DNA of 64,000 nucleotides, from contig DAIPBO010000009.1 in assembly GCA_036774405.1 (NCBI GenBank), positions 8,083 to 72,082 of the forward strand, written 5' to 3'. This DNA is from Chloroflexota bacterium (lineage in GTDB: Bacteria > Chloroflexota > Anaerolineae > UBA1429). Of the stretch, positions 42,989-58,951 are shown piece by piece. The notes beneath the pieces are model-generated. The model saw nothing but the letters and a program-made list of their open reading frames with translations. It had not been told where the DNA came from and did not search any database. Every line of letters begins with the position of its first letter. Positions within the stretch are counted from its first letter, which is position 1. A program made the position numbers and the translations under genes.

Positions 42989-45100
42989 ATGAGCCAAGCT
43001 GGACTGCAGTGCGACTCTGGGCTCGAGCTGCTACCGCTGCTTGAGCGTGTTGGGCGCGAGTTGCGAGAGCGGTCTCGTGCACTTGCCGCGCAACTGACCG
43101 AGCCCAACCTGCGCGGGCTGGTCATCGCAGATGACGAGTTCGACCAACTGCTCGGCCAGTCACTGGGCGCATCTCCCTTTGCCTGTCTGCAACCCTTGGA
43201 TAATGCCCTCCACGGGGGAGCCTGGGAGCAACTGCTGGTACGGGTTGGGCTCTCGCATCTCGAAGGTCTGATCATCCTCATCGCGCTGTTGCCCGAGATA
43301 GATCGTGCTTTCGAGCGCATCTTTGGCTACCTGCAAGATGACGTCACTGCGCGGCGCCCGACGGTCGATCTCATGCTACGCCTGCTGTGGGATGCGCCCA
43401 GAGACCGCCTGGCCGCCCGAAGCCTCTTCTGGCCGCAGTCGCCTCTGCGACGGCTGGGCCTCGTGATGCTCCGCTCTGAGGGAGAGCGTGATTGCGGCCT
43501 GCTTGCCCAACAAGTCCTGGTACATCCTATTGCCACCGAGCATCTGCTGCGGCAGGGCGACGCCCCTGAGCCCGTGCAGCACGCCGTACGCGTGCTGGCG
43601 GTCGGCTCGCTGCTCGTGGACGCAGCCAGCCAGCAGGCACACGGCATGCTGGCTTGGCTGAATGATCAGTCGCCCACACGTCTCTGGGTGCAGGCACAGG
43701 CCCCCTACACCGAACTTGTGCGCAACCTGGCTCAGGCAGCTTGCGATAGCTGGCAACTCTCACTCGTCGAGCTGGACCTGTCGCAGACTGGCGATATCGA
43801 AGACGCCACGCGGGCGGCTGCGCTTGAGGCGCTGCTGCGAGACGCCGCTCTGTTCATCAGTGGTCTTGGCGACGAACAGGCTCCCTCTGAGCAACGTCTG
43901 ATGGTCGAGCGCGCCGCTGCCCTATTGTGCGCCTTTCCGCGTCCCGTGTTCTGGCACTGTTCGCTGCTAGTGCCCCTGGCTGCGCCCCCTCATACACGCA
44001 GTGCGACCTGTGAGTTGCCCGCCCCTGATTATGCCCAACGTTTGGCGCTATGGCAGGCCGCCATAGCCCCGGGCACATGCTGTGAGGCTGCTGCGCTCGA
44101 GAAAGTGGCGGGGCGCTACCGTCTGGCGCCAGAGCGTATCGCCTGGTCAGCCCGTGTGGCAGTAGAGACGGCGGCCAGGCTCGCGCCGCAGGCGGCGGTG
44201 CGATTTGCGGACCTGGCCGATGGTGCCCTGCGTGCAAGCAGTCGGGATATCGGGCAGCTAGCGCACCGCATCGCGCCACGGCATGGTTGGCAAGACCTGG
44301 TGCTCCCGGCCGATCGACTGGCGCAGCTCAGGGAGATGTGCGATCAGCTTGCCTACCGGCACGTCGTGATGGAGCAGTGGGGCTATGGTCGACGTAGTGC
44401 CGCGCCCGGCCTGTCGGCGCTGTTCGCTGGTCCATCGGGGACGGGCAAATCGATGGCCGCTGAAGTGATCGCAGGCGAGTTAGGGCTCGATCTCTATCGC
44501 ATCGACCTTTCTGGCGTCGTGAGCAAGTACATTGGAGAGACCGAAAAGAACCTGGCGCGCATCTTTTCGCTGGCGCGAGACGCTAACGCGATCCTGCTAT
44601 TCGATGAGGCCGACGCCCTCTTTGGCAAGCGCTCTGAGACGCGTGATGCCCACGACCGTTACGCCAATATTGAGGTCAGTTATCTGCTCCAGAAGATCGA
44701 AGAGTACGATGGTCTGGTGATCCTCACCAGCAATCTACGGCAGAACCTCGACGAGGCCTTTATGCGGCGGCTGCAGCTCTCGGTCGATTTCCCGTTTCCT
44801 GATGAGCAGACGCGCTTGCAGATATGGCGCAGGCTCATCACGCCGCAGACGCCCGTAGGGGAGCTCGACCTGGAGCATCTCGCCCGACGCTTTCGGCTGT
44901 CGGGTGGCAGCATTCGTAATGTGGTGCTCACGGCGGCATTCCTGGCGGCCCGTGATGGCCAGCCGCTCAACACCGACTATGTGACCTGGGCTGTCCGCCG
45001 CGAGTATCAAAAGCTCGGTCGTTTGGTTGAGGCTGGGCAGTTCGCGACCGGAGAGCGTTTGGGCGCTCGTATCGAGATGCAAGGGTGGGGTGATGCCTGA
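42989..45100 (+). CDS. eCIS-associated AAA+ ATPase (Afp15/Pvc15-like), with a large non-ATPase N-region and a C-terminal AAA+ domain.
   Basis: Walker A GPSGTGKSMAAE, Walker B ILLFDEADALF, sensor/arginine finger ...TSNLRQNLDEAFMRR. This is the first gene of the tail-like cluster. Confidence 0.75.
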   Translation: MSQAGLQCDSGLELLPLLERVGRELRERSRALAAQLTEPNLRGLVIADDEFDQLLGQSLGASPFACLQPLDNALHGGAWEQLLVRVGLSHLEGLIILIALLPEIDRAFERIFGYLQDDVTARRPTVDLMLRLLWDAPRDRLAARSLFWPQSPLRRLGLVMLRSEGERDCGLLAQQVLVHPIATEHLLRQGDAPEPVQHAVRVLAVGSLLVDAASQQAHGMLAWLNDQSPTRLWVQAQAPYTELVRNLAQAACDSWQLSLVELDLSQTGDIEDATRAAALEALLRDAALFISGLGDEQAPSEQRLMVERAAALLCAFPRPVFWHCSLLVPLAAPPHTRSATCELPAPDYAQRLALWQAAIAPGTCCEAAALEKVAGRYRLAPERIAWSARVAVETAARLAPQAAVRFADLADGALRASSRDIGQLAHRIAPRHGWQDLVLPADRLAQLREMCDQLAYRHVVMEQWGYGRRSAAPGLSALFAGPSGTGKSMAAEVIAGELGLDLYRIDLSGVVSKYIGETEKNLARIFSLARDANAILLFDEADALFGKRSETRDAHDRYANIEVSYLLQKIEEYDGLVILTSNLRQNLDEAFMRRLQLSVDFPFPDEQTRLQIWRRLITPQTPVGELDLEHLARRFRLSGGSIRNVVLTAAFLAARDGQPLNTDYVTWAVRREYQKLGRLVEAGQFATGERLGARIEMQGWGDA

Positions 45101-46925
45101 GAAACGCTTTGATCGCGTGAGAGTGACTCCTCGCACAGAGACAGCGCGAAGGGGCGAGTCGCCCCGGCCAGATTCGCTGCGCGCGGACTCTCAGCGGGCA
45201 GGGAATAGGTGTCTGCGCGCCCTGCTGGCGAGCGGAATGCCCAGCGGCATCCTGCGATCGGGGCGTGGCGGAGCTTTTTCCGCGTCGCACAACGTAGAGA
45301 TGGCCCTTGAGCGACGCCGCGGTCTTGGCCAGCCCCTGCCGGAACCAACTCGCACCAAGATGGAGATGGCTTTTGGGGCTTCGTTCGAGGGCGTTACCGT
45401 TCACACCGGCGGCGAGGCGGATGGCCTCGCGCAGCAGGTGGCCGCGGTGGCGTTCACCCATGGCAAAGATCTGTACTTTTCTGCTGGGGCTTTCGCACCC
45501 GACACGCCACACGGTCAGCGTCTGTTGGCTCACGAGTTGACTCATGTGATACAGCAGCGCCCTGGTCGCAAGGTCATGGTTGGCGCGGCCAATGACCCTG
45601 CCGAGTTGGAGGCCGATGCGTTGGCAGACGCCGTCGTGCAGCGTCTGACCTTTGATAGAGCCAGGGGGCAGAACGAGGTTCAGCCCATTCAGCGGCAAGT
45701 AGAACTTGAGGAAGAGGAGCCCATCCAGGCACTGCGGCGCCAGGTTGAGCCCGAGGAAGAAGAGCCCATTCAGACGCTGCGCCGCCAGAGCGAGGATGAC
45801 GAGTTGGCGCAGCCGCTGCGCCGTTCGTCACCGGTCGAGCCTGTGTCGAGCGCGCCTGCCGTCACATCGCAAGGGCCCACGACGGCCGGCGAGGCCTCAA
45901 CCTATGCCCGAGCTATGCAAGCCTATCGGGCCGGCGAGTTGCGCAGCGCTCAGGACCTCTTTCAGCAGGTGCGCGACGATCCTCAGGTGAGCGACCGTGA
46001 ACGAGCCAGCGCTACCTGGAACGTTGGTCGCATTCATGAGGAGCTGGGCGACGAGGCCGCCGCGCTGGCATGTTATCGCGAGTATCTATCCATGCCCGGG
46101 GCCTCTGCTGACCGTCGTCCGGTGGCCGAACGCATTGTGGAGCGAATGGAGAGCGAGCAGCGGGAGGGCGCAGAGCCGGCCGCTGGCATGGGATCGACGG
46201 CAACGGCCGCTGCAGAGCCCGAGGCCGCCACTGCCGAGACGTCGGCGCCTCACCGTCCTCGCCCCGAGGCCGCCCCCGACCCAGCCTCACGAGCCAGGGC
46301 CGTCTATCGCGAGGGCGTTCGCGCCTATCGCGCGGGCGAGTTGCGTGGCGCTCTGGACCGATTCCAGCAGGTGCTCGAGATCGATCAGGCGCCTGCGAGC
46401 CACCGCGCTAGTGCCATCTGGAACATAGGCCGCATCTATCAGGGGATGGGCAATAGCAGGGCCGCTCTGGCCATGTACCGCGCCTATATCGCTCAGCCCG
46501 CCGTGCCCCCCGAGCGTCTCGAGGTGGCGCAGGGCATCATCGCAGACCTGGAGCGTGAAAGCAAAGCCGGCACTGCGGAACCTGAGGCTGGAGTAGGGGC
46601 TGGCCCCGACGACAAGGCGACGGCGCCCGAACGTCTGCCCACCGTTCCCGAGCAGCGAGCTCAGGCGCTCTATGGCCTGGCATCGCAGGCCTATCAGAAC
46701 GGCGACTATGCCACAGCACTCGAGCACCTGCAACAGCTCATGCGTACCGATGGGCTCGAGCAGCGGTTGTATACCGAGACGCTCTACAACATGGCGCAAT
46801 GTTATCGACGGCTTGGCAACAATGGCGCCGCCATAGACATGTATCGTGGTTTTATGGAGCAGCCCGATGCCGCACCCGAAGAGCGCGAGCGCGCACAGCA
46901 ACTGATCGCGACGCTGCGCCGCTAG
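45093..46925 (+). CDS. DUF4157 (HExxH metallopeptidase-like, eCIS-associated) domain protein with an acidic tandem repeat and three roughly 95-aa TPR-like repeats. Candidate effector/cargo or adaptor.
   Basis: AFGASFEGVTVHTGGEADGLAQQVAAVAFTHGKDLYFSAGAF...LLAHELTHVIQQR matches the DUF4157 core. Start ATG overlaps the ATPase stop (ATGCCTGA). Confidence 0.6.
   Translation: MPEKRFDRVRVTPRTETARRGESPRPDSLRADSQRAGNRCLRALLASGMPSGILRSGRGGAFSASHNVEMALERRRGLGQPLPEPTRTKMEMAFGASFEGVTVHTGGEADGLAQQVAAVAFTHGKDLYFSAGAFAPDTPHGQRLLAHELTHVIQQRPGRKVMVGAANDPAELEADALADAVVQRLTFDRARGQNEVQPIQRQVELEEEEPIQALRRQVEPEEEEPIQTLRRQSEDDELAQPLRRSSPVEPVSSAPAVTSQGPTTAGEASTYARAMQAYRAGELRSAQDLFQQVRDDPQVSDRERASATWNVGRIHEELGDEAAALACYREYLSMPGASADRRPVAERIVERMESEQREGAEPAAGMGSTATAAAEPEAATAETSAPHRPRPEAAPDPASRARAVYREGVRAYRAGELRGALDRFQQVLEIDQAPASHRASAIWNIGRIYQGMGNSRAALAMYRAYIAQPAVPPERLEVAQGIIADLERESKAGTAEPEAGVGAGPDDKATAPERLPTVPEQRAQALYGLASQAYQNGDYATALEHLQQLMRTDGLEQRLYTETLYNMAQCYRRLGNNGAAIDMYRGFMEQPDAAPEERERAQQLIATLRR
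45681..45824 (+). repeat. Imperfect 45-nt tandem repeat encoding (V)E(P)EEEEPIQxLRRQ acidic repeats inside the DUF4157 gene.
   Basis: ...QPIQRQ / VELEEEEPIQALRRQ / VEPEEEEPIQTLRRQ / SEDDELAQPLRR. Confidence 0.5.
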
Positions 46926-46931
46926 GGAGCC

Positions 46932-47777
46932 GTGATGATTCACTTGCTTGATGATGCCATCCGTAAACTGATCCAGACTGAGACGGGCTATGCCGCGCCC
47001 GATGTTGAGGTCAGCTTCAGCCAGCCTACGGGCGATTGGGCAGCTGGCCTGACGCATCCGGTGATCAACTGTTATCTATATGATGTTCGTGAGAATAACG
47101 AACTGCGCTCGGCCGAGTGGACCGTCGACCGCGGCCCCAACGGGTATGCGGCCAAGCGAATGGCTCCGCTGCGCTTTGACGTCAGCTATCTCATCACAGT
47201 GTGGACGCAAGACCATATCGACGACGAGCATGCCATGCTCTGGCGCGTGCTCGAGTCCTTGGCGACGCACGAGACGCTCCCAGACCAGTACTGTGATGAG
47301 GCCCTGAAAAGCCAGCCCTATCCACTGCGCTGCAAGACGGCGCAGGCGACGCGTGCCATCGATGATCTACCCGATTTGTGGAGTGTGATGGACAACCCTT
47401 TGCGTCCATCGATCAACTATGTGGTCACCATGGCAATGGAGCGCATGGAGCCGATCCACAGTCGTCAGGTGGTTACCAAACAGATCGACGTGGTGCAACG
47501 TGGGGTGATCGAAACTCAGGCCGAGACGATCCTGCAGATCGGAGGCATCGTCCACAACGGTGGGCGAACGCCTGCCCCAGTTGCGGGCGCCAGCGTCACT
47601 CTGGTCGAAACGGCCCAGCAGACCTTGACTGATCGGCTGGGGCGCTATCGCTTTCGCAACGTGCCGCGCGGTCGCTATCGGCTGGTGGCAGCCCACGAGG
47701 GCATGCATGGTGAGCGCGAGATCATCGTACCTCTACGTTCGGGCGATACCGACCTGTATGACATCGGTGTGCACTGA
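46932..47777 (+). CDS. eCIS cap/tail-terminator protein (Afp16/Pvc16-like, DUF4255) with a C-terminal carboxypeptidase-regulatory-like beta-sandwich.
   Basis: N-terminus MIHLLDDAIRKLIQTETGY...PVINCYLYDVRENNELRS is the typical DUF4255 start. C-terminal GASVTLVE...GRYRFRNVPRGRYRLVA. Confidence 0.65.
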   Translation: MMIHLLDDAIRKLIQTETGYAAPDVEVSFSQPTGDWAAGLTHPVINCYLYDVRENNELRSAEWTVDRGPNGYAAKRMAPLRFDVSYLITVWTQDHIDDEHAMLWRVLESLATHETLPDQYCDEALKSQPYPLRCKTAQATRAIDDLPDLWSVMDNPLRPSINYVVTMAMERMEPIHSRQVVTKQIDVVQRGVIETQAETILQIGGIVHNGGRTPAPVAGASVTLVETAQQTLTDRLGRYRFRNVPRGRYRLVAAHEGMHGEREIIVPLRSGDTDLYDIGVH

Positions 47778-47855
47778 TGCCGAAAGGAGGCACAGCTTTA
47801 TTCTGACATTGTGGCAGGCACCCTGGCTCTGAGGTTGTGAAAAGGACGAGCGAAC

Positions 47856-49418
47856 ATGCCAATCTATCAGTCTCCGGGCGTTTACATCGAAGAGGTCGAC
47901 CGTGGCACACGGCCCATTGAGGCGGTGGGCACCGCAGTTGCGGCCTTTGTCGGCTTTAGCGCCAAGGCCGAGATGCCAGGCGGCGTCAATGAACCGGTGT
48001 CGCTTTTGGGCAAAGCTGTTGCGGTGACCAACTGGTCGCAGTATGTAGAGAGGTATGGCGGCTTTCTCGATGGGGCATACCTGCCCTATGCCGTGTACGG
48101 CTACTTTTTGAACGGTGGCAGTCGCTGCTATGTCGTCAGCGTCAAGACATTGGGAGCTTCGACAGATCCGAGCCTGGCCAGCCCCGCCATGGTGGCGCTG
48201 CCAAGCGGCGGTGAAAAGCCGGCCGATACCCTACAGATCACGTCACGCTCGGGTGGCCCCGCCGGCAATGATATTCAGGTGGCAGTGCGTCCGCTCGAGG
48301 AGGATCGCTTTACGCTGGTCATCAGCGGGCCCGATGGCGCCAGCGAGACCTTCGAGGGCCTGACTCTCGCCAAAGACGAGCGTAACGTCGAGGTGGTGGT
48401 CAACGCCCAGTCTCGACTGGTCAAAGTGGCGGTGCTTAAGGCGGCTGGCAGTTTGGTCGAGCGCAAGCCCCAAGAGGGCACCTACACGCTGACCGGCGGC
48501 GCTATGCAGACCAAGGCCGTTACTGCGGCCGACTATCGCGGGCAGGTGGCGGAGCGCACGGGGATCGGCGGCCTCGAGGCGGTGGAAGAGATCACCATGC
48601 TGGCTGCACCAGATCTCATGGCCAGCTATCAGGCCGGTGAGATGTCGTTGGGCGACGTGCAGGCGGTGCAGCAGGCAATGTACGAGCACTGCGAACGTGT
48701 CAAGTACGCTTTTGCCATCCTCGATTGCCCACCCGATCTGGGGCCTCAGGCCATGCGCGATTGGCGCCTCACAGCCAACTACGACACCAAGTACGCCGCG
48801 CTCTACTATCCCTGGATCGAGACGGGCGACATGGTACGTGGCAAGGGCGTTGTGCGCGTTCCGCCTTCGGGCCACATCGCTGGCGTCTATGCGCGTAGCG
48901 ACGCCGAGCGGGGCGTACACAAGGCTCCAGCCAACGAGGTGGTGCGCGGTGCTACGGGGCTGCCCATCCAGATCACTCGCGCCGAACAGGATAGCCTCAA
49001 CCCGATCGGCATCAACTGCATCCGATCCTTCCCAGGGCGTGGCCTGCGCGTTTGGGGCGCTCGCACCCTCAGCAGTGATCCTGCCTGGCGCTACATCAAC
49101 GTGCGCCGGCTGTTCAACATGGTTGAAGAGTCGATCGAGCGGGGGACACAGTGGGTCGTGTTTGAGCCGAACGACGCCGACCTGTGGGCACGGGTGCGCC
49201 GCGATGTGCGCGCCTTTCTCAAGACCGTGTGGTCGTCGGGGGCGCTGTTCGGGGCTTCGCCCGACGAAGCCTTTTACGTCAAGTGTGATGAGGAACTCAA
49301 CCCACCCGAAGTGCGCGATCTGGGCCAGCTGATCATCGAGATCGGCATTGCGCCAGTCAAGCCGGCTGAGTTTGTCATCTTCCGTATCAGCCAGTGGGCC
49401 GGGCCATCGGCCGAGTAG
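47856..49418 (+). CDS. Contractile tail sheath protein (Afp2/3/4, phage sheath family).
   Basis: MPIYQSPGVYIEEVDRGTRPIEAVGTAVAAFVG N-terminus. Conserved C-terminal sheath domain (AALYYPW...GHIAGVYARSD...APANE). Size 520 aa. Confidence 0.85.
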   Translation: MPIYQSPGVYIEEVDRGTRPIEAVGTAVAAFVGFSAKAEMPGGVNEPVSLLGKAVAVTNWSQYVERYGGFLDGAYLPYAVYGYFLNGGSRCYVVSVKTLGASTDPSLASPAMVALPSGGEKPADTLQITSRSGGPAGNDIQVAVRPLEEDRFTLVISGPDGASETFEGLTLAKDERNVEVVVNAQSRLVKVAVLKAAGSLVERKPQEGTYTLTGGAMQTKAVTAADYRGQVAERTGIGGLEAVEEITMLAAPDLMASYQAGEMSLGDVQAVQQAMYEHCERVKYAFAILDCPPDLGPQAMRDWRLTANYDTKYAALYYPWIETGDMVRGKGVVRVPPSGHIAGVYARSDAERGVHKAPANEVVRGATGLPIQITRAEQDSLNPIGINCIRSFPGRGLRVWGARTLSSDPAWRYINVRRLFNMVEESIERGTQWVVFEPNDADLWARVRRDVRAFLKTVWSSGALFGASPDEAFYVKCDEELNPPEVRDLGQLIIEIGIAPVKPAEFVIFRISQWAGPSAE

Positions 49419-49461
49419 CTGACTCGTGGCGCATGAGCGCGGCGATTGAGGAGGAACACAG

Positions 49462-49905
49462 ATGGGTGAGCGTCAGGACCCATTGGTTGGTTTTCACTAT
49501 GCCATTGACGTGCAAGGCAAGATCCGCGGTTACTTTACCGAGTGTAGCGGCATCGGCTCAGAGCACGAAGTCATCGAACACAAAGTCGTCGACGAAAAGG
49601 GCCGCGAGGTCATCATGAAGCTCCCTGGACGCCTCAAGTGGGAGAACATCACTCTCAAGCGGGGCATCACCAACAATATGGACATCTGGGATTGGCGCGA
49701 CGAGGTTGTCCGCGGCAAGGTGGATGATGCGCGACGCAACGGCTCGATTATCATGTTCGATCAATCGCTCAAAGAGGTCGCGCGCTGGAACTTTGAGCGA
49801 GCGTGGCCGGTCAAGGTTAGCGGACCGGCGGTCAAGGCTGACAGCAACGAGTTTGCGATCGAGGAACTGGTGATCACGCACGAGTATCTGTATCGCGCGC
49901 CTTAA
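49462..49905 (+). CDS. Inner tube protein (Afp1/Pvc1-like, T4 gp19 fold).
   Basis: PLVGFHYAIDVQG...GYFTECSGIGSE...KWENITLKRGIT pattern of eCIS/T6SS Hcp-like tube proteins. Size 147 aa. Confidence 0.8.
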   Translation: MGERQDPLVGFHYAIDVQGKIRGYFTECSGIGSEHEVIEHKVVDEKGREVIMKLPGRLKWENITLKRGITNNMDIWDWRDEVVRGKVDDARRNGSIIMFDQSLKEVARWNFERAWPVKVSGPAVKADSNEFAIEELVITHEYLYRAP

Positions 49906-49921
49906 GGCTGGCGGCTGAACC

Positions 49922-50281
49922 ATGCAGACCGAATTCACGTTCCGCCTGCCCTTGGGCTATCAGGACGGCGCTGGCCAGGTGCACCGAGAGGGCTCGATGC
50001 GCCTGGCGACGGCCATAGATGAGATCGCGCCGCTTGGCGACGCGCGCGTGCGCGCAAACGAAGCCTATCTCTCCGTGCTGTTGCTCGCGCGGGTGGTCAC
50101 ACGGCTGGGATCTCTTCCGACGGTGACCACCGAGGTCATCGAGGGGTTGTTCTCGGCCGACGTGGCCTTTTTGCAGGCGCTCTATCGGCAGATCAACCTG
50201 ACCGGCGGTTCCGTGGTCGAGGCCGTTTGCCCGCACTGCGGCCAGACGTTTGAGGCGCTGCTCGCCTCGTCCGAACCATGA
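49922..50281 (+). CDS. Small conserved hypothetical protein between the two tube genes (possible assembly chaperone). C-terminal CxxC.
   Basis: 119-aa ORF with an ATG 16 nt after the tube stop. No recognisable family. VCPHCGQTFEAL at the C-terminus. Confidence 0.4.
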   Translation: MQTEFTFRLPLGYQDGAGQVHREGSMRLATAIDEIAPLGDARVRANEAYLSVLLLARVVTRLGSLPTVTTEVIEGLFSADVAFLQALYRQINLTGGSVVEAVCPHCGQTFEALLASSEP

Positions 50282-50322
50282 TCAGGTGACATGAGATCAT
50301 GTGCTGTGAGTAGGATGGGCTG

Positions 50323-50751
50323 ATGGAAGTCGAGGCGTATCCGGCCTTTCGGTTTGCCGTGCAGATCGAGGGCGTCACTGAGGCCATGTTCACCGAATGC
50401 ACCTTGCCGTCCCTCGAGGTAGACGTGCGCGAGCAACTCGAGGGCGGCTATAACGATGGCACGCATCTCTTGCCAGGGCGGGTCAAGCGCGGCACCGTGG
50501 CTCTCAAGCGTGGCGTGGCCCGGCAGAGCGCGCTGCTGCGCTGGTACAACGAAGTGATGCAGGGGCAGATCGCCAAGAGCCGTCGGCAGGTATCGGTGCT
50601 CTTGCTCGACTCGCTTGGCGAGACGGTGCTGCGATGGGATTTCGTCGGAGCCTATCCAACCAAGTGGTCGGGTCCTACACTCAACAGTGGCAGCAAAGAG
50701 CTGGCCGTCGAGACGCTCGAACTGGGCTTTGAGAATGTGACGGTGGGGTGA
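50323..50751 (+). CDS. Second tube paralog (Afp5/Pvc5-like).
   Basis: FRFAVQIEG...FTECTLPSLEVDV...GRVKRGTVALKRGV. Size 142 aa. Confidence 0.8.
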   Translation: MEVEAYPAFRFAVQIEGVTEAMFTECTLPSLEVDVREQLEGGYNDGTHLLPGRVKRGTVALKRGVARQSALLRWYNEVMQGQIAKSRRQVSVLLLDSLGETVLRWDFVGAYPTKWSGPTLNSGSKELAVETLELGFENVTVG

Positions 50752-52793
50752 CTGTGACCGAGCGAACGGCAAAGGTAGACGTGGTAAGCGACCTGGCTCA
50801 CGAGGTGGCCGGTCGGTATGCGCCAGCGAGGCTGCTTGTGGGGCTGGGCTCGACGGGCCCAGTGCGCCTACGGCCGCAGGTGACGCTGCGCCTGAGCGAG
50901 CCGGCACCTCCGGCGATTCCTGGCGAGGCGCAAGAGTCGCCCGTAGCCACAGAGTCCCTGACGACACCAGATAGGTCGGCGGTCGCTCCACCCGAGGTAT
51001 CTACAGCCAGCCAAGGGCGTGCCTGGTATGAGCGGCCGTGGCCGTTCACGGTGGAGCAGGTACAGGCCGCCCTCGAGCAGCCGAAAGTATCCTCACCTGA
51101 GGCCATCGCGGCGTCGCAGATTGTGGCTGAGCCGACGCAATCGGCCGCTGAACAACCATCGCATTCAGGCCCAGCGCCAGATCGCGAGCTGCTGCCTGGC
51201 GCCGCAGAGTCGGCCCCACAACAGGGGGTACCCCCTCGCCGTCGACGCGCACAGGTCGACGAATTGTCTGCGACAGTCACCGCAGTTGCCGAGGATACCC
51301 CGTCTCATAGAGCGCCTCGCGCTGAGTCAGGCCGTATAGACGATGAGATGGTTGCCCCTGCCAGTACGGCCGAGCGGGGGCCGGTCGCCGACGCACACAG
51401 ACCAGCCACTGAGGCCACGCGGCCCGCAGCAGCAATCGCGCGTCGCCAGCGAGTCGATAGCGCGCGACCAGATGCACCTGCTGATGTGATGCCGCCGCGA
51501 GCAGCAGCGCCCGCGCCAGCCAGCCAGGCCCCGAACAAAGACGCGATCGACGCGACTGAAGACAGTGCCATGCAAGTACCCGAACCTCTCGCCCGGCCGG
51601 CGAGAGCCTCGGAGCCAGTCGCGCCGCCGATTGTCTCCAACGCATCCTCTGCTGATGCTGTGGTCGCGCAGAACATGCCCCTCATCGACCTATCCATCGC
51701 CCCCCCGCGTGTCGGGGGTGAATATGATGCTGGGCCGCGCCCAACTGGTGGCGACATAGAGACACGGCCAGCCGCGGAGTCACTGTCCGAGCCCGGTCGC
51801 GCTCTAGCCTCGCCGCAGCCCACAACCATGGTCCGCCCAAGGGCGCCGCTGCTACCATCAACGACAGCTGAACCGCGCAGCAGCGAGGTGGCCCTGACCT
51901 TAGCGGCCGTGCCGCCCGTCGGCGAGCCGCCAACCTCCTTTCTGCCTCCCACAGCGGCGGCAGACGCTACCAGTAGATCGGTGCCCGCGGCTGTGAACGG
52001 TCCATTGCCCCTGCAGCGCAGGGCCGTGCAGCGTAGCGATGTCGCACAGCCTCTGGATCAAGCCGAAAGCCTGCCGGAGCGTCATTCTCAGGCTGAAAGG
52101 CCCACAGAACCTCTGGACAGACCACCCGCAGGGCCACCTGTGTACGACCTCAGCGCGCGGTACGAGGCGGCCCTGGACGCCTATCGTGCTGTGCGCTCAG
52201 GCCAGACAGAGCCGTCCATCGAGGCCGCCTCAGCGTCGCCGGCCATAGCCTCTGAGAACTCAGGTGGCTCGATGGTGCAGCGAGTGTCTCTCCGGTCAGA
52301 GGATGCCGCTTCCGCCTCGCTGCTCGAGCCCTCGGCTCATACCGAGCCGGAGACTCTGGGTACCGCCATCCCGACCTTGTCTCTGGTGCGACCTCTCGCG
52401 CGGGCTGGCGCTGCGGTTGAGCAGGCCCCATCGCCGCAGATGGCGCCAGCAGAAGGCGACCGCAGCGTGCAGCTACAGCGTGTGCAGCAGCCTGTCGCGC
52501 TCGAGCAGGCGCATGTTGGGGCCAGAGTGATCTCGACGCCGCCGATGGTCAGCGAACCGTCGAGGAGCAAGCACGCCGCACCTGAGGCATCTGCCGGTGG
52601 CGATGTGGTTCTGCAGCGCGCAACGGTCACGGCCCCAGAGGGACAGGGCGAAGCGAACACGTCTGGCGCGCAGGCTGGGCCTCCTCCAGCGGCCGAGGTC
52701 AATATCGACCGCCTTGCAGAGGAGGTTATGCAGCGTCTGCGCCGTCGTCTACAGATCGAGGCCGATCGCCTCGGCCGGCCAGGTTGGCGCTAG
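50748..52793 (+). CDS. Large Pro/Ala/Ser-rich low-complexity protein in the tape-measure position (candidate tail-length determinator analog, or a disordered substrate/scaffold). GTG start.
   Basis: 681 aa with extreme P/A/S/E bias and a short helical C-terminus (EVNIDRLAEEVMQRLRRRLQIEADRL). Lies between the tube and the LysM/tube-initiator gene. Confidence 0.35.
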   Translation: MTVTERTAKVDVVSDLAHEVAGRYAPARLLVGLGSTGPVRLRPQVTLRLSEPAPPAIPGEAQESPVATESLTTPDRSAVAPPEVSTASQGRAWYERPWPFTVEQVQAALEQPKVSSPEAIAASQIVAEPTQSAAEQPSHSGPAPDRELLPGAAESAPQQGVPPRRRRAQVDELSATVTAVAEDTPSHRAPRAESGRIDDEMVAPASTAERGPVADAHRPATEATRPAAAIARRQRVDSARPDAPADVMPPRAAAPAPASQAPNKDAIDATEDSAMQVPEPLARPARASEPVAPPIVSNASSADAVVAQNMPLIDLSIAPPRVGGEYDAGPRPTGGDIETRPAAESLSEPGRALASPQPTTMVRPRAPLLPSTTAEPRSSEVALTLAAVPPVGEPPTSFLPPTAAADATSRSVPAAVNGPLPLQRRAVQRSDVAQPLDQAESLPERHSQAERPTEPLDRPPAGPPVYDLSARYEAALDAYRAVRSGQTEPSIEAASASPAIASENSGGSMVQRVSLRSEDAASASLLEPSAHTEPETLGTAIPTLSLVRPLARAGAAVEQAPSPQMAPAEGDRSVQLQRVQQPVALEQAHVGARVISTPPMVSEPSRSKHAAPEASAGGDVVLQRATVTAPEGQGEANTSGAQAGPPPAAEVNIDRLAEEVMQRLRRRLQIEADRLGRPGWR

Positions 52794-52806
52794 GAGGGAT
52801 GCAGAG

Positions 52807-53466
52807 ATGCCTACCACTCGCGGCGGCCTCGAGCCCGCTACCATTACCAACAAGACCACGGGCGAAATCACGGCGTGCATGTTCAATCCGTTTGAGTACA
52901 CGATCAGCAAGCAGAATCAGTACGAGAACGCCGAGACCAAAGGGCGGAACATTCCTCGTGTACGCTTTCGGCAGGGTGGCGCCCAGACGCTGGGGCTCAG
53001 GCTGCTGTTCGACACCTATGCCGAGGCCAGCGATGTGCGGGCCGTCACGGGTACGCTATGGCGCATGATGATGATCGATGAGGATCAGGCTGATAGCCGT
53101 ACCGGCAAAGGAGAGCCGCCACACTGTGTCTTTCGGTGGGGCAGGTTCGAATTCGAGGCCGTGATCACCCGCGTGACAGAGAAGATGACTCTCTTCTTGC
53201 GTGACGGTACGCCGGTGCGCAGCGAGGTTGACATTGCCCTGCAGCAAGTGATCGATGAGGAAGAGCATGCCGCAACCAACCCCACATCGGGTGGTGGTGC
53301 CGCCTATAGGACACGCCTGGTACTGGCCGGCGATCGCCTCGACCTGATCGCCTTTGACGTGTATGGCGATGCCACCCGCTGGCGTCTGTTGGCCGAGGCC
53401 AACGCCATCACCGATCCGCTACGCCTGCGGCCTGGGCAGGTTCTCCTAATCCCACCGTTGGTGTGA
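52807..53466 (+). CDS. LysM-domain tail protein (Afp7/P2 gpX-like tube initiator/baseplate hub component).
   Basis: C-terminal LysM YRTRLVLAGDRLDLIAFDVYGDATRWRLLAEANAITDP...LRPGQVLLIP. GGAGGG RBS. The ORF-track start (52597) lies inside the previous gene. Confidence 0.6.
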   Translation: MPTTRGGLEPATITNKTTGEITACMFNPFEYTISKQNQYENAETKGRNIPRVRFRQGGAQTLGLRLLFDTYAEASDVRAVTGTLWRMMMIDEDQADSRTGKGEPPHCVFRWGRFEFEAVITRVTEKMTLFLRDGTPVRSEVDIALQQVIDEEEHAATNPTSGGGAAYRTRLVLAGDRLDLIAFDVYGDATRWRLLAEANAITDPLRLRPGQVLLIPPLV

Positions 53467-53470
53467 GACG

Positions 53471-55174
53471 ATGACAGCCAATCAGGAAGCACTGATCAGA
53501 CAGATTCATGTGAGCGTGGGGGGCCAAGAGCTCGACGCACGGCTGATGACCGACCTGTTCCGCGTCGAAGTCGATACCAGCCTCACCCTGCCCGACATGT
53601 GTGTGCTGCACCTACACGATCGCAACGCCGAACTTGTTGATGAAGGTCCCTTTGAGCTGGGGGCCGAAGTGAGTGTGGGGGTGGGCGACGAGCAGGGCCG
53701 CGGTGACAACGCTCTGTTTGTTGGCGAGATCACTGGCATCGAGCCCGAGTATCGCCGCGGGACAGTGGTCGATCTGCTGGTGCGAGCCTACGACCGCACC
53801 CATCGGTTGCAGCGAGGTACGCGGACGCGCACCTTTCAGAATGTCACCGATAGCGACATCGCCACGGAGGTGGCTCAAGTGGCGGGGCTGCGTGCCGACG
53901 TGGACACGACCACCACGCAACACGAGCACGTATTCCAGGATGGCACCAGCGACTATGCCTTCTTACAACAGCGTGCCGATGCGATCGGCTACTATCTCTG
54001 GGTGCGCGAGCAGACGCTCTACTTTAAGCGCGAGTCTGCCACGGGCAATGCTGTGGACCTCGAGTGGGGCCGCGGGTTGCTCGAGTTTCATCCGGTGCTG
54101 GCGCTAACACAACAGGTCAACGAAGTGGCCGTGCGCGGCTGGAATCCCGAGGCCAAGCGTGAGGTTCTGGGGAGTGCCACCACCGGCAGCGCAGCGCCCG
54201 CAATCGGCCAGTCTGGCAGCGGGGCCAGTCTGGCAGAAGACTCCTTTGGGGCGGCCAGCGCACTGGTGGTGGCAACGGGGCTTGCAGCGCAAGAGGAGGC
54301 CGACCGGCTGGCACGCGCCACATTCGATCACTATGACGGCCGTTTTGTCGAGGCGCAAGGTGTCTGCGTGGGCAATGATGCTATCCAGGCTGGAACCATT
54401 GTGAACATCAGCGCCGTGGGCCAGCGCTTTAGTGGACACTATACGGTTACCAAGGCTACCCATATCTGGGATACTCAAGATGACTATCTGACCCACTTTG
54501 CTGTGACGGGCAGAGGTGGAGACACGCTTCGTGAGCTGATTACTGGCAGACCACGAGAGGATCGCACGTGGCCCATCATGGTGGGCATTGTCACCAACAA
54601 CGATGATCCGCAGGGGCAGGGCAGAGTGCGCGTCAGGTTGCCATGGCTGGGAGACGAGGCCGAAGCCCAATGGGCACGTGTGGCCAGCCCAGGAGCCGGC
54701 AACCGGCGAGGGCTTTTGGTGCTGCCCGAGGTGAACGATGAGGTGCTGGTCGGCTTTGAGCAGGGTGATATCGGACAGCCGATCGTGCTCGGGGGTCTAT
54801 GGAATGGGCAGGACGCCTTGCCAGCTGACTCGTCTGATGTGGTGGTGAATGGCGAGGTCAACCAGCGTGCATGGGTGACGCGACGAGGGCACAAGATCGT
54901 GCTCTCTGAACAGAACCCGGCGTTGGTGCGCATTGAGAGTGTGGCGGGCAACACGCTGGTTATCGATGATGACAACGCACGGATTGAGATAAGAACTGCA
55001 GGGGGCAACACACTAACGCTCGACGACAACGGACAGTCACTCAAGATCGGGGGCAATGGACAGATCGAGATCGAGTCGAGCACCAACCTCAGTATCAAAG
55101 CGGGCGGCAATCTTGATCTCGAGGCCAGTGGCGTCACCACGATCCGTGGCGCCACTGTACAGCTCAACCCATAG
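53471..55174 (+). CDS. Baseplate hub/spike protein (Afp8-like, phage late control gene D + gp5/VgrG-like C-terminal beta-helix).
   Basis: gpD-type N-domain. C-terminal repeats ...LVIDDDNARIEIRTAGGNTLTLDDNGQSLKIGGNGQIEIESSTNLSIKAGGNLDLEASG. Confidence 0.75.
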   Translation: MTANQEALIRQIHVSVGGQELDARLMTDLFRVEVDTSLTLPDMCVLHLHDRNAELVDEGPFELGAEVSVGVGDEQGRGDNALFVGEITGIEPEYRRGTVVDLLVRAYDRTHRLQRGTRTRTFQNVTDSDIATEVAQVAGLRADVDTTTTQHEHVFQDGTSDYAFLQQRADAIGYYLWVREQTLYFKRESATGNAVDLEWGRGLLEFHPVLALTQQVNEVAVRGWNPEAKREVLGSATTGSAAPAIGQSGSGASLAEDSFGAASALVVATGLAAQEEADRLARATFDHYDGRFVEAQGVCVGNDAIQAGTIVNISAVGQRFSGHYTVTKATHIWDTQDDYLTHFAVTGRGGDTLRELITGRPREDRTWPIMVGIVTNNDDPQGQGRVRVRLPWLGDEAEAQWARVASPGAGNRRGLLVLPEVNDEVLVGFEQGDIGQPIVLGGLWNGQDALPADSSDVVVNGEVNQRAWVTRRGHKIVLSEQNPALVRIESVAGNTLVIDDDNARIEIRTAGGNTLTLDDNGQSLKIGGNGQIEIESSTNLSIKAGGNLDLEASGVTTIRGATVQLNP

Positions 55175-55177
55175 GAG

Positions 55178-55585
55178 TTGATGATGGCGGCGGTGCCGGC
55201 GGCCAAGCAGGGCGATTTGGTGCAGGCGATGGACACCCACATCGTGATGGTGCCCACGCCCGGTGGATCTGTACCCACGCCCATGCCCGGGCACCCTTTC
55301 GCGGGCACCATCGATGGTGGGTTGAGCAGTAATGTCACCATCATGGGGCGACCCGCTGCCACCATGAACAGTACTGCTACCAACCAGCCCCCACATATAC
55401 CCATCGGCGGGCCATCTTTTCAGGTGCCGCCCAGTAATCGTGCCACCATTGTGCAAGGAAGCGCCACAGTCTTGATCAACGGACTGCCAGCGGCGCGTAA
55501 CGGTGATATGGCGCTCACTTGCGATGACGCCGCACCAGCTCCGCACGGTCAGGTGATTGCCACAGGTACCGTCTTGATTGGCTGA
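55178..55585 (+). CDS. PAAR-domain spike tip protein (Afp10-like).
   Basis: Three PAAR-like beta-strand repeats. Ends GDMALTCDDAAPAPHGQVIATGTVLIG. Size 135 aa. Confidence 0.65.
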   Translation: MMMAAVPAAKQGDLVQAMDTHIVMVPTPGGSVPTPMPGHPFAGTIDGGLSSNVTIMGRPAATMNSTATNQPPHIPIGGPSFQVPPSNRATIVQGSATVLINGLPAARNGDMALTCDDAAPAPHGQVIATGTVLIG

Positions 55586-55599
55586 AAGGCAGGAGACCA

Positions 55600-55995: not shown

Positions 55996-56001
55996 AGCAG
56001 C

Positions 56002-57987: not shown

Positions 57988-57990
57988 GCG

Positions 57991-58941: not shown

Positions 58942-58951
58942 CGACGGCCCT

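What the first reader, a model, noticed from the sequence alone, without database searches (positions are those of the whole stretch)
50748..52793. 681-aa intrinsically disordered Pro/Ala/Ser-rich protein in the tape-measure slot
Canonical eCIS/phage tape-measure proteins are long alpha-helical rulers. This ORF sits at the syntenic position (after the tube, before the LysM initiator and hub). It is almost entirely low complexity, with a short helical C-terminus. Its codon usage and GC3 are consistent with real coding sequence, and it overlaps its neighbours by 4 nt. It could be an unconventional length determinator, a phospho-acceptor scaffold for the kinase/FHA pair, or loaded cargo.
Basis: inference. 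Interest (0 to 1): 0.55.

Follow-up and report, generated by a model that had tools for sequence, protein, structure and literature searches.

The report
Disordered tape-measure candidate of injection system
A real, fast-evolving and mostly unstructured protein sits where phage-tail-like injection machines keep their length-setting tape measure, and it belongs to a widespread unnamed family that may explain how machines reported to lack a tape measure still reach a fixed length.

Summary
The ORF (50748-52793, +, 681 aa) is real. It lies in a complete eCIS cluster (42989-62050), after a tail-assembly-chaperone homologue and the second tube gene and directly before the LysM tube initiator and VgrG. 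It has no Pfam, NCBIfam, PHROG or PDB match. A single open frame fills this slot in 58 of 63 related Chloroflexota loci. The sequence is hypervariable (about 51% nucleotide identity to a relative whose neighbouring proteins are 91-93% identical). Three things are conserved: a C-terminal amphipathic helix, short islands, and a dispersed (P/A)(V/I)QR motif that is 10-23-fold enriched. The same helix ends slot proteins in Streptomyces, Nostoc, Paenibacillus, Rhodococcus, Burkholderia, Ralstonia and a haloarchaeon. A profile of it finds 2005 cluster representatives. Sixty-eight Streptomycetaceae members measure 1015 ± 64 aa although only about 8% of the sequence aligns. That predicts 219-232 nm at published eCIS coefficients, against 230-268 nm measured for the S. 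coelicolor CIS, whose papers say the tape measure gene is absent. Most likely it is a disordered tape-measure/initiator protein (confidence 0.55). The kinase-scaffold and cargo readings gain no specific support. Two details of the finding are wrong or weak: there is no 4-nt overlap at the 3' end, and GC3 is not diagnostic.

The parts
50748..52793 (+). Slot ORF: 681-aa Ala/Pro/Arg/Ser-rich, mostly disordered protein and candidate tape-measure/initiator of the eCIS. GTG start; GTG 50754 is an alternative start.
50793..50849 (+). N-terminal conserved island LAHEVAGRYAPARLLVGLG (residues 16-34), shared with the closest relatives L001 and L002
51033..51083 (+). Conserved island RPWPFTVEQVQAALEQP (residues 96-112), with a predicted short helix at 102-109
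51243..51266 (+). Conserved island RRAQVDEL (residues 166-173)
52146..52193 (+). Conserved island DLSARYEAALDAYRAV (residues 467-482), with a predicted helix at 468-483
52008..52037 (+). Two adjacent hQR motifs (PLQRRAVQRS, residues 421-430)
52272..52289 (+). hQR motif (MVQRVS, residues 509-514)
52467..52487 (+). hQR motif (VQLQRVQ, residues 574-580)
52605..52625 (+). hQR motif (VVLQRAT, residues 620-626). An hQR motif 47-106 residues from the C-terminal end (the last one before the helix) recurs in most family members.
52683..52790 (+). C-terminal module PPAAEVNIDRLAEEVMQRLRRRLQIEADRLGRPGWR (residues 646-681). It is an amphipathic helix and the family signature, always found at the extreme C-terminus.
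52792..52798 (+). AGGAGGG Shine-Dalgarno for the LysM gene, overlapping the slot ORF's stop codon (a translational-coupling type junction)
49922..50281 (+). 119-aa tail-assembly-chaperone homologue with a C-terminal CxxC zinc-ribbon-like motif. PHROG 508 match at E 6e-8. It is 53-56% identical to proteins that PGAP names 'phage tail assembly protein' in Nostoc and Rhodococcus and 'zinc-ribbon domain-containing protein' in Streptomyces.
49462..49905 (+). Tube protein 1 (Phage_T4_gp19)
50323..50751 (+). Tube protein 2 (Phage_T4_gp19; Cis5/Cis1b position). Its stop overlaps the slot ORF's start by 4 nt.
52807..53466 (+). Tube initiator (CIS_tube + LysM; Cis7/Afp7)
53471..55174 (+). VgrG-like spike/hub (Phage_GPD + Phage_base_V; Cis8). 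Proposed docking partner of the C-terminal helix (inference).
45093..46925 (+). DUF4157 (eCIS_core, HExxH) + TPR protein, a putative cargo or processing factor. It carries PIQRQ and related motifs after the domain. The likely start is ATG 45093.
42989..45100 (+). AAA+ ATPase (Cis15/Afp15-like)
46932..47777 (+). Cap/terminator (Pvc16_N + CarboxypepD_reg)
47856..49418 (+). Sheath

Best explanation
The ORF encodes the lineage-II eCIS counterpart of a tape-measure/initiator protein, built as an intrinsically disordered chain rather than a helical rod. Shown: it is a conserved gene in the tape-measure slot. It has a hypervariable, low-complexity body of about 640 residues, a conserved C-terminal amphipathic helix, short conserved islands and dispersed (P/A)(V/I)QR motifs. 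It is always paired with a strongly conserved tail-assembly-chaperone homologue. Inferred mechanism: the C-terminal helix trimerises and docks in the tube-facing cavity of the VgrG spike and LysM tube-initiator complex. This is where the Cis6/Alg6 plug helix sits, and where phage and pyocin tape-measure C-termini sit. Docking there nucleates the baseplate hub. The disordered chain, kept soluble by the chaperone (possibly through the hQR motifs), runs up the lumen while tube subunits polymerise around it. Tube growth stops and the Pvc16-like cap binds when the chain's N-terminal end is reached. At published eCIS coefficients (0.216-0.229 nm per residue), 681 residues predict a particle of about 147-156 nm. 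The chain may then be removed or expelled, which would free the lumen for DUF4157-type cargo.
For: Position: it lies between a tail-assembly-chaperone homologue plus tube genes and the tube initiator and hub. The cluster (42989-62050) is bounded by housekeeping genes and has no other tape-measure candidate. Reality of the gene: the open frame is kept in 58 of 63 related loci. A C-terminal profile finds 2005 representatives, and the module lies within about 6 residues of the C-terminus in all 150 listed. Architecture expected of a ruler: the termini are conserved and the middle is hypervariable. Length changes by tandem repeats, with 17 copies of a 32-aa unit in L047 and a repeat-built P0183. 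Composition tracks genome GC: Pro/Ala-rich here, Ser/Thr/Asn/Lys-rich in Nostoc. Cross-phylum family: the same C-terminal helix ends slot ORFs in Nostoc (E 9.5e-6), Paenibacillus (5e-4), Halogeometricum and Rhodococcus (hhalign about 1e-4), and by eye plus weak HMM scores in Burkholderia, Streptomyces and Ralstonia. Length versus particle size: 68 Streptomycetaceae members measure 1015 ± 64 aa (CV 6%) with a median of 8% of the query alignable. This predicts 219-232 nm, against about 230 nm for the extended CIS-Sc sheath-tube and 268 nm for the whole particle. One hit was verified to sit in a complete eCIS locus. The H. borinquense member is an open frame of about 2192 aa. It predicts about 470 nm extended, which is compatible with contracted sheaths of 220 nm on average and 274 nm at most. 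Structural precedent: a C-terminal helix of the protein encoded in this same slot (Alg6/Cis6) trimerises in the spike cavity and is essential for assembly, and in Anabaena part of it reaches into the tube lumen. Gap in the literature: lineage II systems are reported to lack a tape measure yet have uniform length.
Against: No sequence or profile similarity to any tape-measure family or solved structure was found. Characterised eCIS tape measures have helical middles, whereas this one is predicted to be disordered (single sequence only). Some family members are only 227-321 aa (Ralstonia, Embleya, Rhodococcus, Burkholderia). These would give particles of only 50-70 nm, shorter than any eCIS length found in the papers read here. 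H. borinquense sheaths are heterogeneous in length and its tube lumen looked empty in subtomogram averages. The Streptomyces counterpart is absent from the published mass-spectrometry tables and from the nine proteins modelled in CIS-Sc. The S. coelicolor orthologue itself could not be retrieved, so the length comparison uses other Streptomycetaceae. The candidate list was capped at 8000 word-sharing proteins, which may narrow the length distribution. Within-species length polymorphism (S. murinus, 1016-1087 aa) shows that a 6% spread need not reflect strong stabilising selection. No tail length is known for this organism.
Confidence: 0.55

Rival explanations
1. It is a plug/assembly nucleator only. 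The C-terminal helix works like Cis6/Alg6, sealing the spike cavity and nucleating hub assembly. The long disordered region does not measure length and instead acts as a lumen filler, an entropic spacer or a tether.
For: The gene position is the same as Cis6/Alg6, and the protein ends in an amphipathic helix, as Alg6 does. Anabaena Cis6 is only partly ordered and reaches into the lumen. Short family members of 227-321 aa fit a plug better than a ruler. Two-sheath loci (Cereibacter, S. clavuligerus) have only a 59-70-aa helical protein in this slot.
Against: No significant similarity to the small slot proteins was found (hhalign E 0.08-0.25 over 7-9 columns), and no PDB hit to Alg6 or Cis6 chains. 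This reading does not explain why hundreds of disordered residues are kept, why length grows by repeat expansion, or why lengths match the published nm-per-residue slope in Streptomycetaceae. It also leaves lineage II without a length determinant.
Confidence: 0.22
2. It is a cargo, a cargo-loading adaptor or an ejected protein. The disordered chain is loaded into the tube lumen and expelled on firing, or it recruits DUF4157 cargo through the shared hQR motif.
For: eCIS cargo carries disordered N-terminal loading sequences and is loaded unfolded by the AAA+ ATPase. The [V/I/L]QR motif is enriched both in slot proteins (375 observed vs 37 expected; 667 vs 29) and in the DUF4157 proteins of the same loci (156 vs 16.5), where it flanks the domain. 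The S. davawensis effector Tme occupies this slot, is about 70% disordered, and binds the spike and tube initiator.
Against: No effector domain, DUF4157 domain or transmembrane segment was found (hydrophobic fraction 0.20). The conserved element is C-terminal and invariantly terminal, whereas cargo signals are N-terminal. The gene is a fixed core component in a fixed position across phyla, whereas cargo genes are variable and usually peripheral.
Confidence: 0.12
3. It is a phospho-acceptor scaffold. The Ser/Thr-rich disordered chain is phosphorylated by the locus kinase and read by the FHA domains to regulate assembly or firing.
For: A kinase-FHA protein and an FHA-Tail_P2_I fusion are encoded downstream and are conserved in most Chloroflexota loci. 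The protein contains 61 Ser and 38 Thr.
Against: Slot proteins occur in loci where no kinase or FHA was detected, both in Chloroflexota (L060, L062, L073) and in the available flank of the Streptomyces locus. No conserved Thr-containing motif emerged, and the conserved motif is (V/I)QR. This role could exist alongside a ruler function but does not explain the family's conserved features.
Confidence: 0.05
4. It is a spurious ORF: a chance open frame in GC-rich DNA, or the shadow of other genes.
For: GC3 is not elevated and GC2 is high. Shuffles of this GC-rich stretch give open frames of about 220 codons on average. There are no database family hits.
Against: The frame is 681 codons against a shuffle maximum of 528. 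It stays open in 58 of 63 diverged loci, where it is about 3 times longer than the next frame. The termini and motifs are conserved at the amino-acid level across phyla, and the profile finds 2005 family representatives.
Confidence: 0.01

Closest known systems
eCIS tape measure proteins Afp14 / Pvc14 / Alg14 (Cis14)
   Same: It is the proposed length determinant of a contractile injection particle. Its N- and C-terminal regions are more conserved than the middle. The residue count scales with particle length at about 0.22 nm per residue in the systems that could be compared.
   Different: No detectable sequence similarity. The middle is predicted to be disordered and Pro/Ala-rich rather than alpha-helical. 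It is encoded between the tube genes and the LysM initiator (phage-like order), not after the fibre gene. Afp14 homologues are reported only for lineage I.
Cis6 / Afp6 / Alg6 spike plug
   Same: It is encoded in the same slot immediately upstream of cis7. It ends in an amphipathic alpha-helix. Alg6's helix trimerises in the spike cavity, contacts Cis7 and Cis8, and is needed for assembly.
   Different: Cis6 proteins are about 60 aa, whereas this protein is 681 aa (family range 227 to about 2200). Sequence and profile comparison with small slot proteins is not significant, and there are no PDB hits.
Tme, the tape-measure-related effector of the Streptomyces davawensis CIS (Nagakubo 2024, PMC11126660)
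   Same: It is a large ORF immediately upstream of the baseplate genes and about 70% disordered. It is reported to interact with the spike and the tube initiator and was proposed to derive from tape measures.
   Different: Tme has an N-terminal DUF4157 domain, predicted transmembrane helices, coiled coils and a C-terminal endonuclease. The window protein has none of these. Here DUF4157 is a separate gene, and the C-terminus is a short helix.
Phage tape measure plus tail assembly chaperone module (lambda gpH with gpG/gpGT; P2 gpT with gpE/E')
   Same: The gene order is tube, chaperone, tape measure, then hub. A chaperone homologue is present (PHROG 508). The tape-measure C-terminus binds the hub and initiates tube polymerisation (established phage knowledge, summarised).
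   Different: Phage tape measures are largely helical and often carry enzymatic or transmembrane segments. There is no Pfam or PHROG tape-measure match here. No programmed frameshift partner was examined. The DUF6760 gene that follows the chaperone in other loci is missing here.
FliK / YscP molecular rulers of flagellar hooks and injectisome needles (own knowledge)
   Same: These are largely unstructured, extended polypeptides whose residue number sets the length of a tubular assembly. Insertions and deletions change that length proportionally.
   Different: They belong to an unrelated system (type III secretion). They are secreted through the growing structure and act by switching export specificity, not by templating tube polymerisation from a baseplate.

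Membership tests
Tape measure protein (phage TMP / eCIS Cis14-Afp14) | Sequence or profile similarity to a known tape-measure family | tested here: not met
   No Pfam hit even at E 10. No NCBIfam or PHROG hit at E 1. No PDB sequence hit at E 10.
Tape measure protein (phage TMP / eCIS Cis14-Afp14) | Encoded between the tube/tail-assembly-chaperone genes and the baseplate hub genes | tested here: met
   Chaperone homologue 49922-50281, tube 50323-50751, the ORF, LysM initiator 52807-53466, VgrG 53471-55174. The arrangement is conserved in 58 or more loci and across phyla.
Tape measure protein (phage TMP / eCIS Cis14-Afp14) | Long, predominantly alpha-helical central region | tested here: not met
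   AlphaFold2 gives four short helices and 597 of 681 residues below pLDDT 50 (single-sequence prediction, so of moderate weight). The protein is 31% Ala+Pro with a low hydrophobic fraction.
Tape measure protein (phage TMP / eCIS Cis14-Afp14) | Protein length proportional to tail or particle length | tested here: inconclusive
   The evidence is indirect. Streptomycetaceae members of 1015 ± 64 aa compare with 230-268 nm for CIS-Sc. The H. borinquense member of about 2192 aa compares with contracted sheaths of 220 nm. No particle length is known for this organism, and short members of 227-321 aa are unexplained.
Tape measure protein (phage TMP / eCIS Cis14-Afp14) | C-terminus bound in the hub/spike and chain located in the tube lumen | not testable with these tools
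   This needs cryo-EM or complex prediction. Only a confident C-terminal helix is predicted.
Cis6 / Afp6 / Alg6 spike plug | Gene immediately upstream of cis7 (LysM tube initiator) | tested here: met
   The stop codon at 52793 is 13 nt before the cis7 start at 52807.
Cis6 / Afp6 / Alg6 spike plug | Small protein (about 60 aa) made of an N-terminal strand, a loop and a C-terminal helix | tested here: not met
   The protein is 681 aa. Only the C-terminal helix feature is shared.
Cis6 / Afp6 / Alg6 spike plug | Sequence similarity to Cis6-position proteins or to solved Cis6/Alg6 chains | tested here: not met
   hhalign of the C-terminal profile against the Cereibacter (59 aa) and S. clavuligerus (70 aa) slot proteins gives E 0.08 and 0.25 over 7-9 columns. 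PDB searches return no CIS chain.
Tme-like tape-measure-related effectors (S. davawensis) | N-terminal DUF4157 domain, transmembrane helices and a C-terminal effector (endonuclease) domain | tested here: not met
   There are no Pfam domains. DUF4157 is in a separate gene, 45093-46925. The hydrophobic fraction is 0.20.
Tme-like tape-measure-related effectors (S. davawensis) | Large, mostly disordered ORF directly upstream of the baseplate genes | tested here: met
eCIS cargo with an N-terminal disordered loading sequence | Disordered N-terminal signal followed by a folded effector domain, in a variable, often peripheral gene | tested here: not met
   There is no folded domain. The conserved element is C-terminal. 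The gene is a fixed core component in a fixed position.
Unnamed family defined here (slot protein with hQR motifs and a terminal LAxxVYxxhKRRLxhExER helix) | The C-terminal module lies within about 6 residues of the protein end | tested here: met
   Residues 646-681 in the window. The same holds in all 150 listed representatives and in 58 Chloroflexota loci.
Unnamed family defined here (slot protein with hQR motifs and a terminal LAxxVYxxhKRRLxhExER helix) | Dispersed (P/A)(V/I/L)QR motifs well above the compositional expectation | tested here: met
   The window has 5 [V/I/L]QR motifs against 0.5 expected. Chloroflexota slot proteins have 375 [LIVMFYW]QR motifs against 37 expected. Streptomycetaceae members have 667 [V/I/L]QR motifs against 29 expected.

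The most novel reading that the evidence does not exclude
Lineage II contractile injection systems measure their length with an intrinsically disordered ruler. These include the Streptomyces and haloarchaeal systems described as having no tape measure. The ruler's only fixed parts are a hub-docking C-terminal helix and repeated (V/I)QR docking motifs. The same motif flanks DUF4157 metallopeptidase-like domains. This suggests that one partner handles both ruler and cargo: the conserved chaperone, the tube lumen, or the DUF4157 protease. If the protease is that partner, it could cut the ruler at these sites to clear the lumen for cargo.
Probability: 0.25. Interest if true: 0.85.

Novelty: new variant of a known kind. 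Interest (0 to 1): 0.68.

Why it matters
Papers from 2019 to 2025 state that lineage II contractile injection systems lack a tape measure, yet S. coelicolor particles are all the same length. The papers are a dbeCIS survey, two S. coelicolor CIS studies and a study of the haloarchaeal T6SS-like CIS. This work identifies a specific, conserved and so far unnamed gene family as the candidate. In Streptomyces it is the gene between DUF6760 and the second tube gene. In H. borinquense it is an apparently unannotated frame of about 2190 aa upstream of cis7. That makes the question directly testable by deletion and length engineering. If confirmed, the protein would be a disordered ruler for a phage-tail-like machine. 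It would also offer a simple handle, repeat number, for tuning the length and cargo capacity of engineered injection systems. The shared hQR motif would point to how ruler and DUF4157 cargo are recognised.

Tried and rejected
1. Direct homology search with the full protein found only itself. A 60-aa C-terminal profile in the word-indexed database returned only short fragments.
2. Pfam, NCBIfam, PHROG and PDB sequence searches of the ORF, its termini and its distant homologues found nothing meaningful. The only matches were chance ones to designed helical proteins.
3. Homology between the C-terminal module and small Cis6-position proteins is not significant, so it is kept only as an architectural analogy.
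4. I first took the Halogeometricum giant frame to be the published 'interspacing region'. I rejected this: no DUF4157-like HExxH motif lies there, and the sheath gene numbering places that region on the other side of the baseplate genes.
5. Electrostatic attraction to a negatively charged tube lumen is not supported. Chloroflexota members are mildly acidic (pI about 5), while other phyla have basic members (pI 10-12).
6. The idea of one hQR motif per tube ring is rejected. Motif spacing is broad, with a median of 70-80 residues and no sharp period, apart from local tandem arrays.
7. There are no internal tandem repeats in the window's own ORF, only a 13-nt, 2.7-copy hit.
8. A fold search for the chaperone-like protein was abandoned because the single-sequence model had a mean pLDDT of 55.
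9. The S. coelicolor orthologue's length could not be obtained. SCO4249 and SCO4250 are not listed in the published tables, and no S. coelicolor entry appeared among the hits or cluster members.
10. A formal test of stabilising selection on length was not attempted. Within-species indel polymorphism is already about 7% of length, so a 6% spread across the family is only suggestive.


Full report
**Observation.** The window carries an ORF from GTG 50748 to TAG 52793 on the + strand, encoding 681 aa. The protein is 17.9% Ala, 13.4% Pro, 9% Arg and 9% Ser, with only 20% hydrophobic residues, against 30-36% in the folded neighbours. AlphaFold2 run on the single sequence puts 597 of 681 residues below pLDDT 50. 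It predicts only four short helices, at residues 16-20, 102-109, 468-483 and 653-674, the last with pLDDT about 90.

The 5' end overlaps the stop of the upstream tube gene by 4 nt (GTGA). The 3' end does not overlap anything. The stop TAG (52791-52793) is embedded in an AGGAGGG Shine-Dalgarno, and the LysM gene starts at ATG 52807.

Codon-position GC is not convincing on its own. The ORF has GC1/2/3 of 0.76/0.60/0.66, against roughly 0.68/0.46/0.72 for the neighbours. The frame is longer than any found in 300 dinucleotide shuffles: 681 codons against a mean of 220 and a maximum of 528.

**Context.** Pfam places the ORF in a complete extracellular contractile injection system. The genes, in order, are:
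- AAA+ ATPase (42989-45100)
- DUF4157/eCIS_core + TPR protein (to 46925)
- Pvc16_N cap (46932-47777)
- sheath (47856-49418)
- tube (49462-49905)
- a 119-aa protein (49922-50281)
- second tube (50323-50751)
- the ORF
- CIS_tube + LysM initiator (52807-53466)
- VgrG (53471-55174)
- PAAR, gp25 and baseplate J
- an FHA-Tail_P2_I fusion
- a Ser/Thr kinase-FHA-TSP3-PLAT protein (to 62050)

The flanks are housekeeping genes, so there is no conventional tape measure elsewhere in the cluster. The 119-aa protein matches PHROG 508, 'tail assembly chaperone', at E 6e-8. It is 53-56% identical to proteins that PGAP names 'phage tail assembly protein' in the Nostoc and Rhodococcus loci and 'zinc-ribbon domain-containing protein' in the Streptomyces locus. 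In tailed phages that gene precedes the tape measure.

**Is it a gene, and is it conserved?** Sequence searches with the protein find only itself. It matches no Pfam, NCBIfam or PHROG family and no PDB chain. Synteny is more informative.

The conserved LysM protein retrieved 80 Chloroflexota loci. All those with enough flank keep the order sheath, tube, chaperone, tube, a 1.7-4.0 kb gap, LysM, VgrG. In 58 of 63 evaluable loci one + strand frame stays open over more than 85% of the gap. That frame is about three times longer than the next longest of the six frames. It encodes 556-1310-aa proteins rich in Pro, Ala, Glu, Ser and Thr.

The sequence is hypervariable. Against L001, whose LysM and tube proteins are 91-93% identical to the window's, the ORF shares only about 51% nucleotide identity. 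The neighbouring genes differ at only 3-8% of first and second codon positions.

The conserved parts are these:
- A C-terminal module, hDhDELARxVYxxhKRRLxhExERxR, at the very end of every protein.
- Short islands within the window's own clade: PFTVEQVRAALQR, RAQVDEL, DLSxRYxAALDAYRA and PLEEALFG. Two of these (PFTVEQV..., residues 96-112, and DLSARYEAALDAYRAV, 467-482) coincide with AlphaFold helices, and a third helix lies in the N-terminal island.
- In more distant Chloroflexota, an N-terminal NPLhRRVQRHxxhSTLFR motif.
- A dispersed motif with consensus (P/A)(P/A)(V/I)QR(Q/A)x(A/E). It occurs 375 times against 37 expected from composition.

The longest homologue (L047, 1310 aa) contains about 17 tandem 32-residue repeats, each with one motif. 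An exhaustive profile search with the C-terminal module finds 2005 cluster representatives at E ≤ 0.001. The module lies within about 6 residues of the C-terminus in all 150 listed.

**Reach beyond Chloroflexota.** Plasmid-borne eCIS loci from other phyla show the same slot protein. The members seen are:
- Streptomyces: 1020, 1235 and 906 aa. These are P/A/G/R-rich, carry 5-9 VQR motifs and end in DELARRLhxPVxRLLRTELRRGRER.
- Nostoc: 524 aa, Ser/Thr/Asn/Lys-rich, ending in IDVTRLADQVYQVIERKIKVERQRRGMF.
- Paenibacillus: 532 aa.
- Burkholderia: 321 aa.
- Rhodococcus: 309 aa.
- Embleya: 255 aa.
- Ralstonia: 227 aa.
- Halogeometricum borinquense.

A profile built from Chloroflexota alone picks out the C-terminus of exactly these slot ORFs. 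The scores are Nostoc 9.5e-6, Paenibacillus 5e-4, and hhalign about 1e-4 for Halogeometricum and Rhodococcus. Burkholderia and Streptomyces score only E 0.27 and 0.48, and Ralstonia and Embleya were matched by eye.

A profile of three Streptomyces proteins retrieved 71 Streptomycetaceae 'hypothetical proteins', a few mislabelled 'Syndecan 1'. One was verified to lie between DUF6760 and the second tube gene of a complete eCIS locus. In that set [V/I/L]QR occurs 667 times against 29 expected.

**What the literature says.** Chen et al. [quoted passage not shown] Casu et al. [quoted passage not shown] The 2025 eLife structure reports identical 268-nm particles and notes that the tape measure gene is absent (PMC12237407). 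The haloarchaeal study found no cis6 or cis14 homologue (PMC11566945).

For the lineage I AlgoCIS, a 2026 preprint shows that the helical Alg14 is a ruler at 0.229 nm per residue. Across eCIS the slope is 0.2156 nm per residue (R² 0.84). Alg14 was not detected in mature particles (10.64898/2026.05.27.728243).

Alg6/Cis6 is encoded in this same slot. It has a C-terminal helix that trimerises in the spike cavity, contacts Cis7 and Cis8, and is essential for assembly (PMC8894135). In Anabaena it is only partly ordered, and a loop reaches into the tube lumen (PMC8894136).

Tme of S. davawensis is the closest published relative in concept. It is a roughly 70% disordered protein in the slot, but it carries DUF4157, transmembrane helices and a nuclease domain (PMC11126660).

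**Length test.** No particle length is known for this organism, so the test has to be indirect.

Sixty-eight full-length Streptomycetaceae members measure 1015 ± 64 aa (range 874-1184, CV 6%), although a median of only 8% of the query aligns by BLASTP. The published coefficients then predict 219-232 nm. That is close to the roughly 230 nm extended sheath-tube and the 268-nm whole particle of CIS-Sc.

In H. borinquense the annotated 182-aa gene upstream of cis7 is the 3' end of a frame open for 2203 codons, against a shuffle maximum of 509. An ATG at L083:2416 gives about 2192 aa. The frame carries seven VQR-type motifs (1.6 expected, P = 0.002), an N-terminal FAQRIIRKRGAATLIFRS motif like the Chloroflexota one, and the C-terminal module. 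At 0.216 nm per residue this predicts about 470 nm extended. That is compatible with contracted sheaths averaging 220 nm with a maximum of 274 nm.

For the window, 681 aa predicts about 147-156 nm. The window's own clade keeps 617-730 aa, a CV of 4.6%.

There are caveats:
- The S. coelicolor orthologue itself was not recovered.
- The candidate list was capped.
- Length is polymorphic within species (S. murinus 1016-1087 aa), so the spread across the family is only suggestive of constraint.
- H. borinquense sheaths are heterogeneous in length.
- Members of 227-321 aa would give unusually short particles.

**Interpretation.** The best-supported reading is a disordered tape-measure/initiator protein. 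Its C-terminal helix docks in the spike and tube-initiator cavity. Its chain occupies the lumen during tube polymerisation with the help of the conserved chaperone, and its length sets tube length.

The steps that are shown are the gene's reality, its position, its architecture, the family's breadth, the chaperone partner and the compatibility of lengths. The steps that are inferred are docking, lumen location and the ruler function itself.

The main rival is a Cis6-like plug whose disordered region does something else. A cargo or adaptor role is kept alive by one unexpected result. The [V/I/L]QR motif is also about 9-fold enriched in the DUF4157 proteins of the same loci (156 observed against 16.5 expected). 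There it sits at stereotyped positions 30-48 residues before the domain and just after it, and it forms arrays with a 16-20-residue period. In the window only the slot ORF had three or more such motifs. A shared partner is therefore likely. It could be the chaperone, the AAA+ loader, the lumen, or the DUF4157 HExxH domain acting as a protease on these sites. This was not tested.

The kinase/FHA scaffold idea has no specific support. The kinase and FHA genes are common in Chloroflexota loci. They were not detected in some loci that keep the slot protein (L060, L062, L073), nor in the flank available for the Streptomyces locus L081.

**Novelty and verdict.** The protein is not a member of any described tape-measure, plug or effector family by sequence or domain tests. 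By position and architecture it is a new variant of the tape-measure/plug theme. Nothing in the searchable literature assigns this slot protein a role in lineage II systems, although most subscription-journal papers were not searchable. The finding is worth following up because it makes an explicitly noted gap, how 'tape-measure-less' CIS set their length, directly testable in Streptomyces.

Noticed in passing
L083:2416-8994 (+), Halogeometricum borinquense pHBOR03, NC_014736.1 about 65704-72282: A roughly 2192-aa open frame, S/T/R/A/G/Q-rich with 7 VQR-type motifs and the family's N- and C-terminal motifs, ends directly at cis7. The gene table lists only its last 182 aa plus short minus-strand ORFs. 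The published cluster description reports no cis6 or cis14 homologue.
   Followed up: partly
L093:4672-8379 (Streptomyces sp. NBC_01426 plasmid); L085:8059-8988 (Rhodococcus sp. WB1 pWB1): Slot proteins appear under-annotated. One is a 1235-aa frame of which only 255 aa is listed, and the other a 309-aa frame of which only 85 aa is listed. The PLSDB gene table is incomplete, so the original records may differ.
   Followed up: partly
DUF4157 ORFs of L001-L080; window 45093-46925: [V/I/L]QR motifs flank the DUF4157 (HExxH) domain at stereotyped distances (about -30 to -48 and +100 to +120 from the domain start). They also form arrays with a 16-20-residue period. Counts are 156 observed against 16.5 expected. 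This may be a recognition or processing site shared with the slot protein.
   Followed up: partly
window 57991-58941 and 58952-62050: An FHA domain is fused to the Tail_P2_I baseplate protein, followed by a Ser/Thr kinase-FHA-TSP3-PLAT protein. Both are conserved in most Chloroflexota eCIS loci. The arrangement is reminiscent of threonine-phosphorylation control of T6SS assembly (PpkA/Fha1; own knowledge).
   Followed up: partly
window 50281-50323; L003:7396-7554, L019:6697-6840, L070:7094-7231: The small DUF6760 gene follows the chaperone homologue in Streptomyces, Nostoc, Burkholderia, Rhodococcus and some Chloroflexota loci. It is absent from the window, L001 and L002, where only 41 nt separate the chaperone gene from the second tube gene.
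   Followed up: partly
L047:1378-5310: The slot protein of 1310 aa contains about 17 near-identical 32-residue tandem repeats (PVEKTATAVPQTESSPLQPAVQRAIAAAETAE). Streptomyces protein P0183 (1184 aa) is likewise built of repeated PVVQRQAEP and PPLGTPLTELPSTATPS units.
   Followed up: partly
window 46932-47777: The cap protein is a fusion of Pvc16_N with a CarboxypepD_reg domain. In the Nostoc and S. clavuligerus loci these are two adjacent genes.
   Followed up: no
L084 (Treponema succinifaciens pTRESU01): This CIS-like locus runs sheath, tube, LysM with no chaperone homologue and no slot gene, and it has FHA and VWA genes upstream. It could serve as a natural 'no ruler' comparison.
   Followed up: no
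L088:8684-8896 (S. clavuligerus), L089:8788-8967 (Cereibacter azotoformans): Two-sheath loci of lineage I type have only a 59-70-aa helical protein in the slot (the Afp6/Cis6 position). One example contains FIARIVRLVKEELARDDLEKGRRERDR, which looks like the module by eye but is not significant by hhalign.
   Followed up: yes
L036 (DASRZI010000103.1): A bin labelled Candidatus Zixiibacteriota carries a Chloroflexota-type eCIS locus with a 1084-aa slot protein. This may reflect a binning error or horizontal transfer.
   Followed up: no
Streptomyces murinus and S. griseus cluster members (P0191-P0267): Slot-protein length is polymorphic within species (S. murinus 1016-1087 aa, S. griseus 1035-1058 aa). 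Several sources name the protein 'Syndecan 1', apparently a low-complexity artefact.
   Followed up: no
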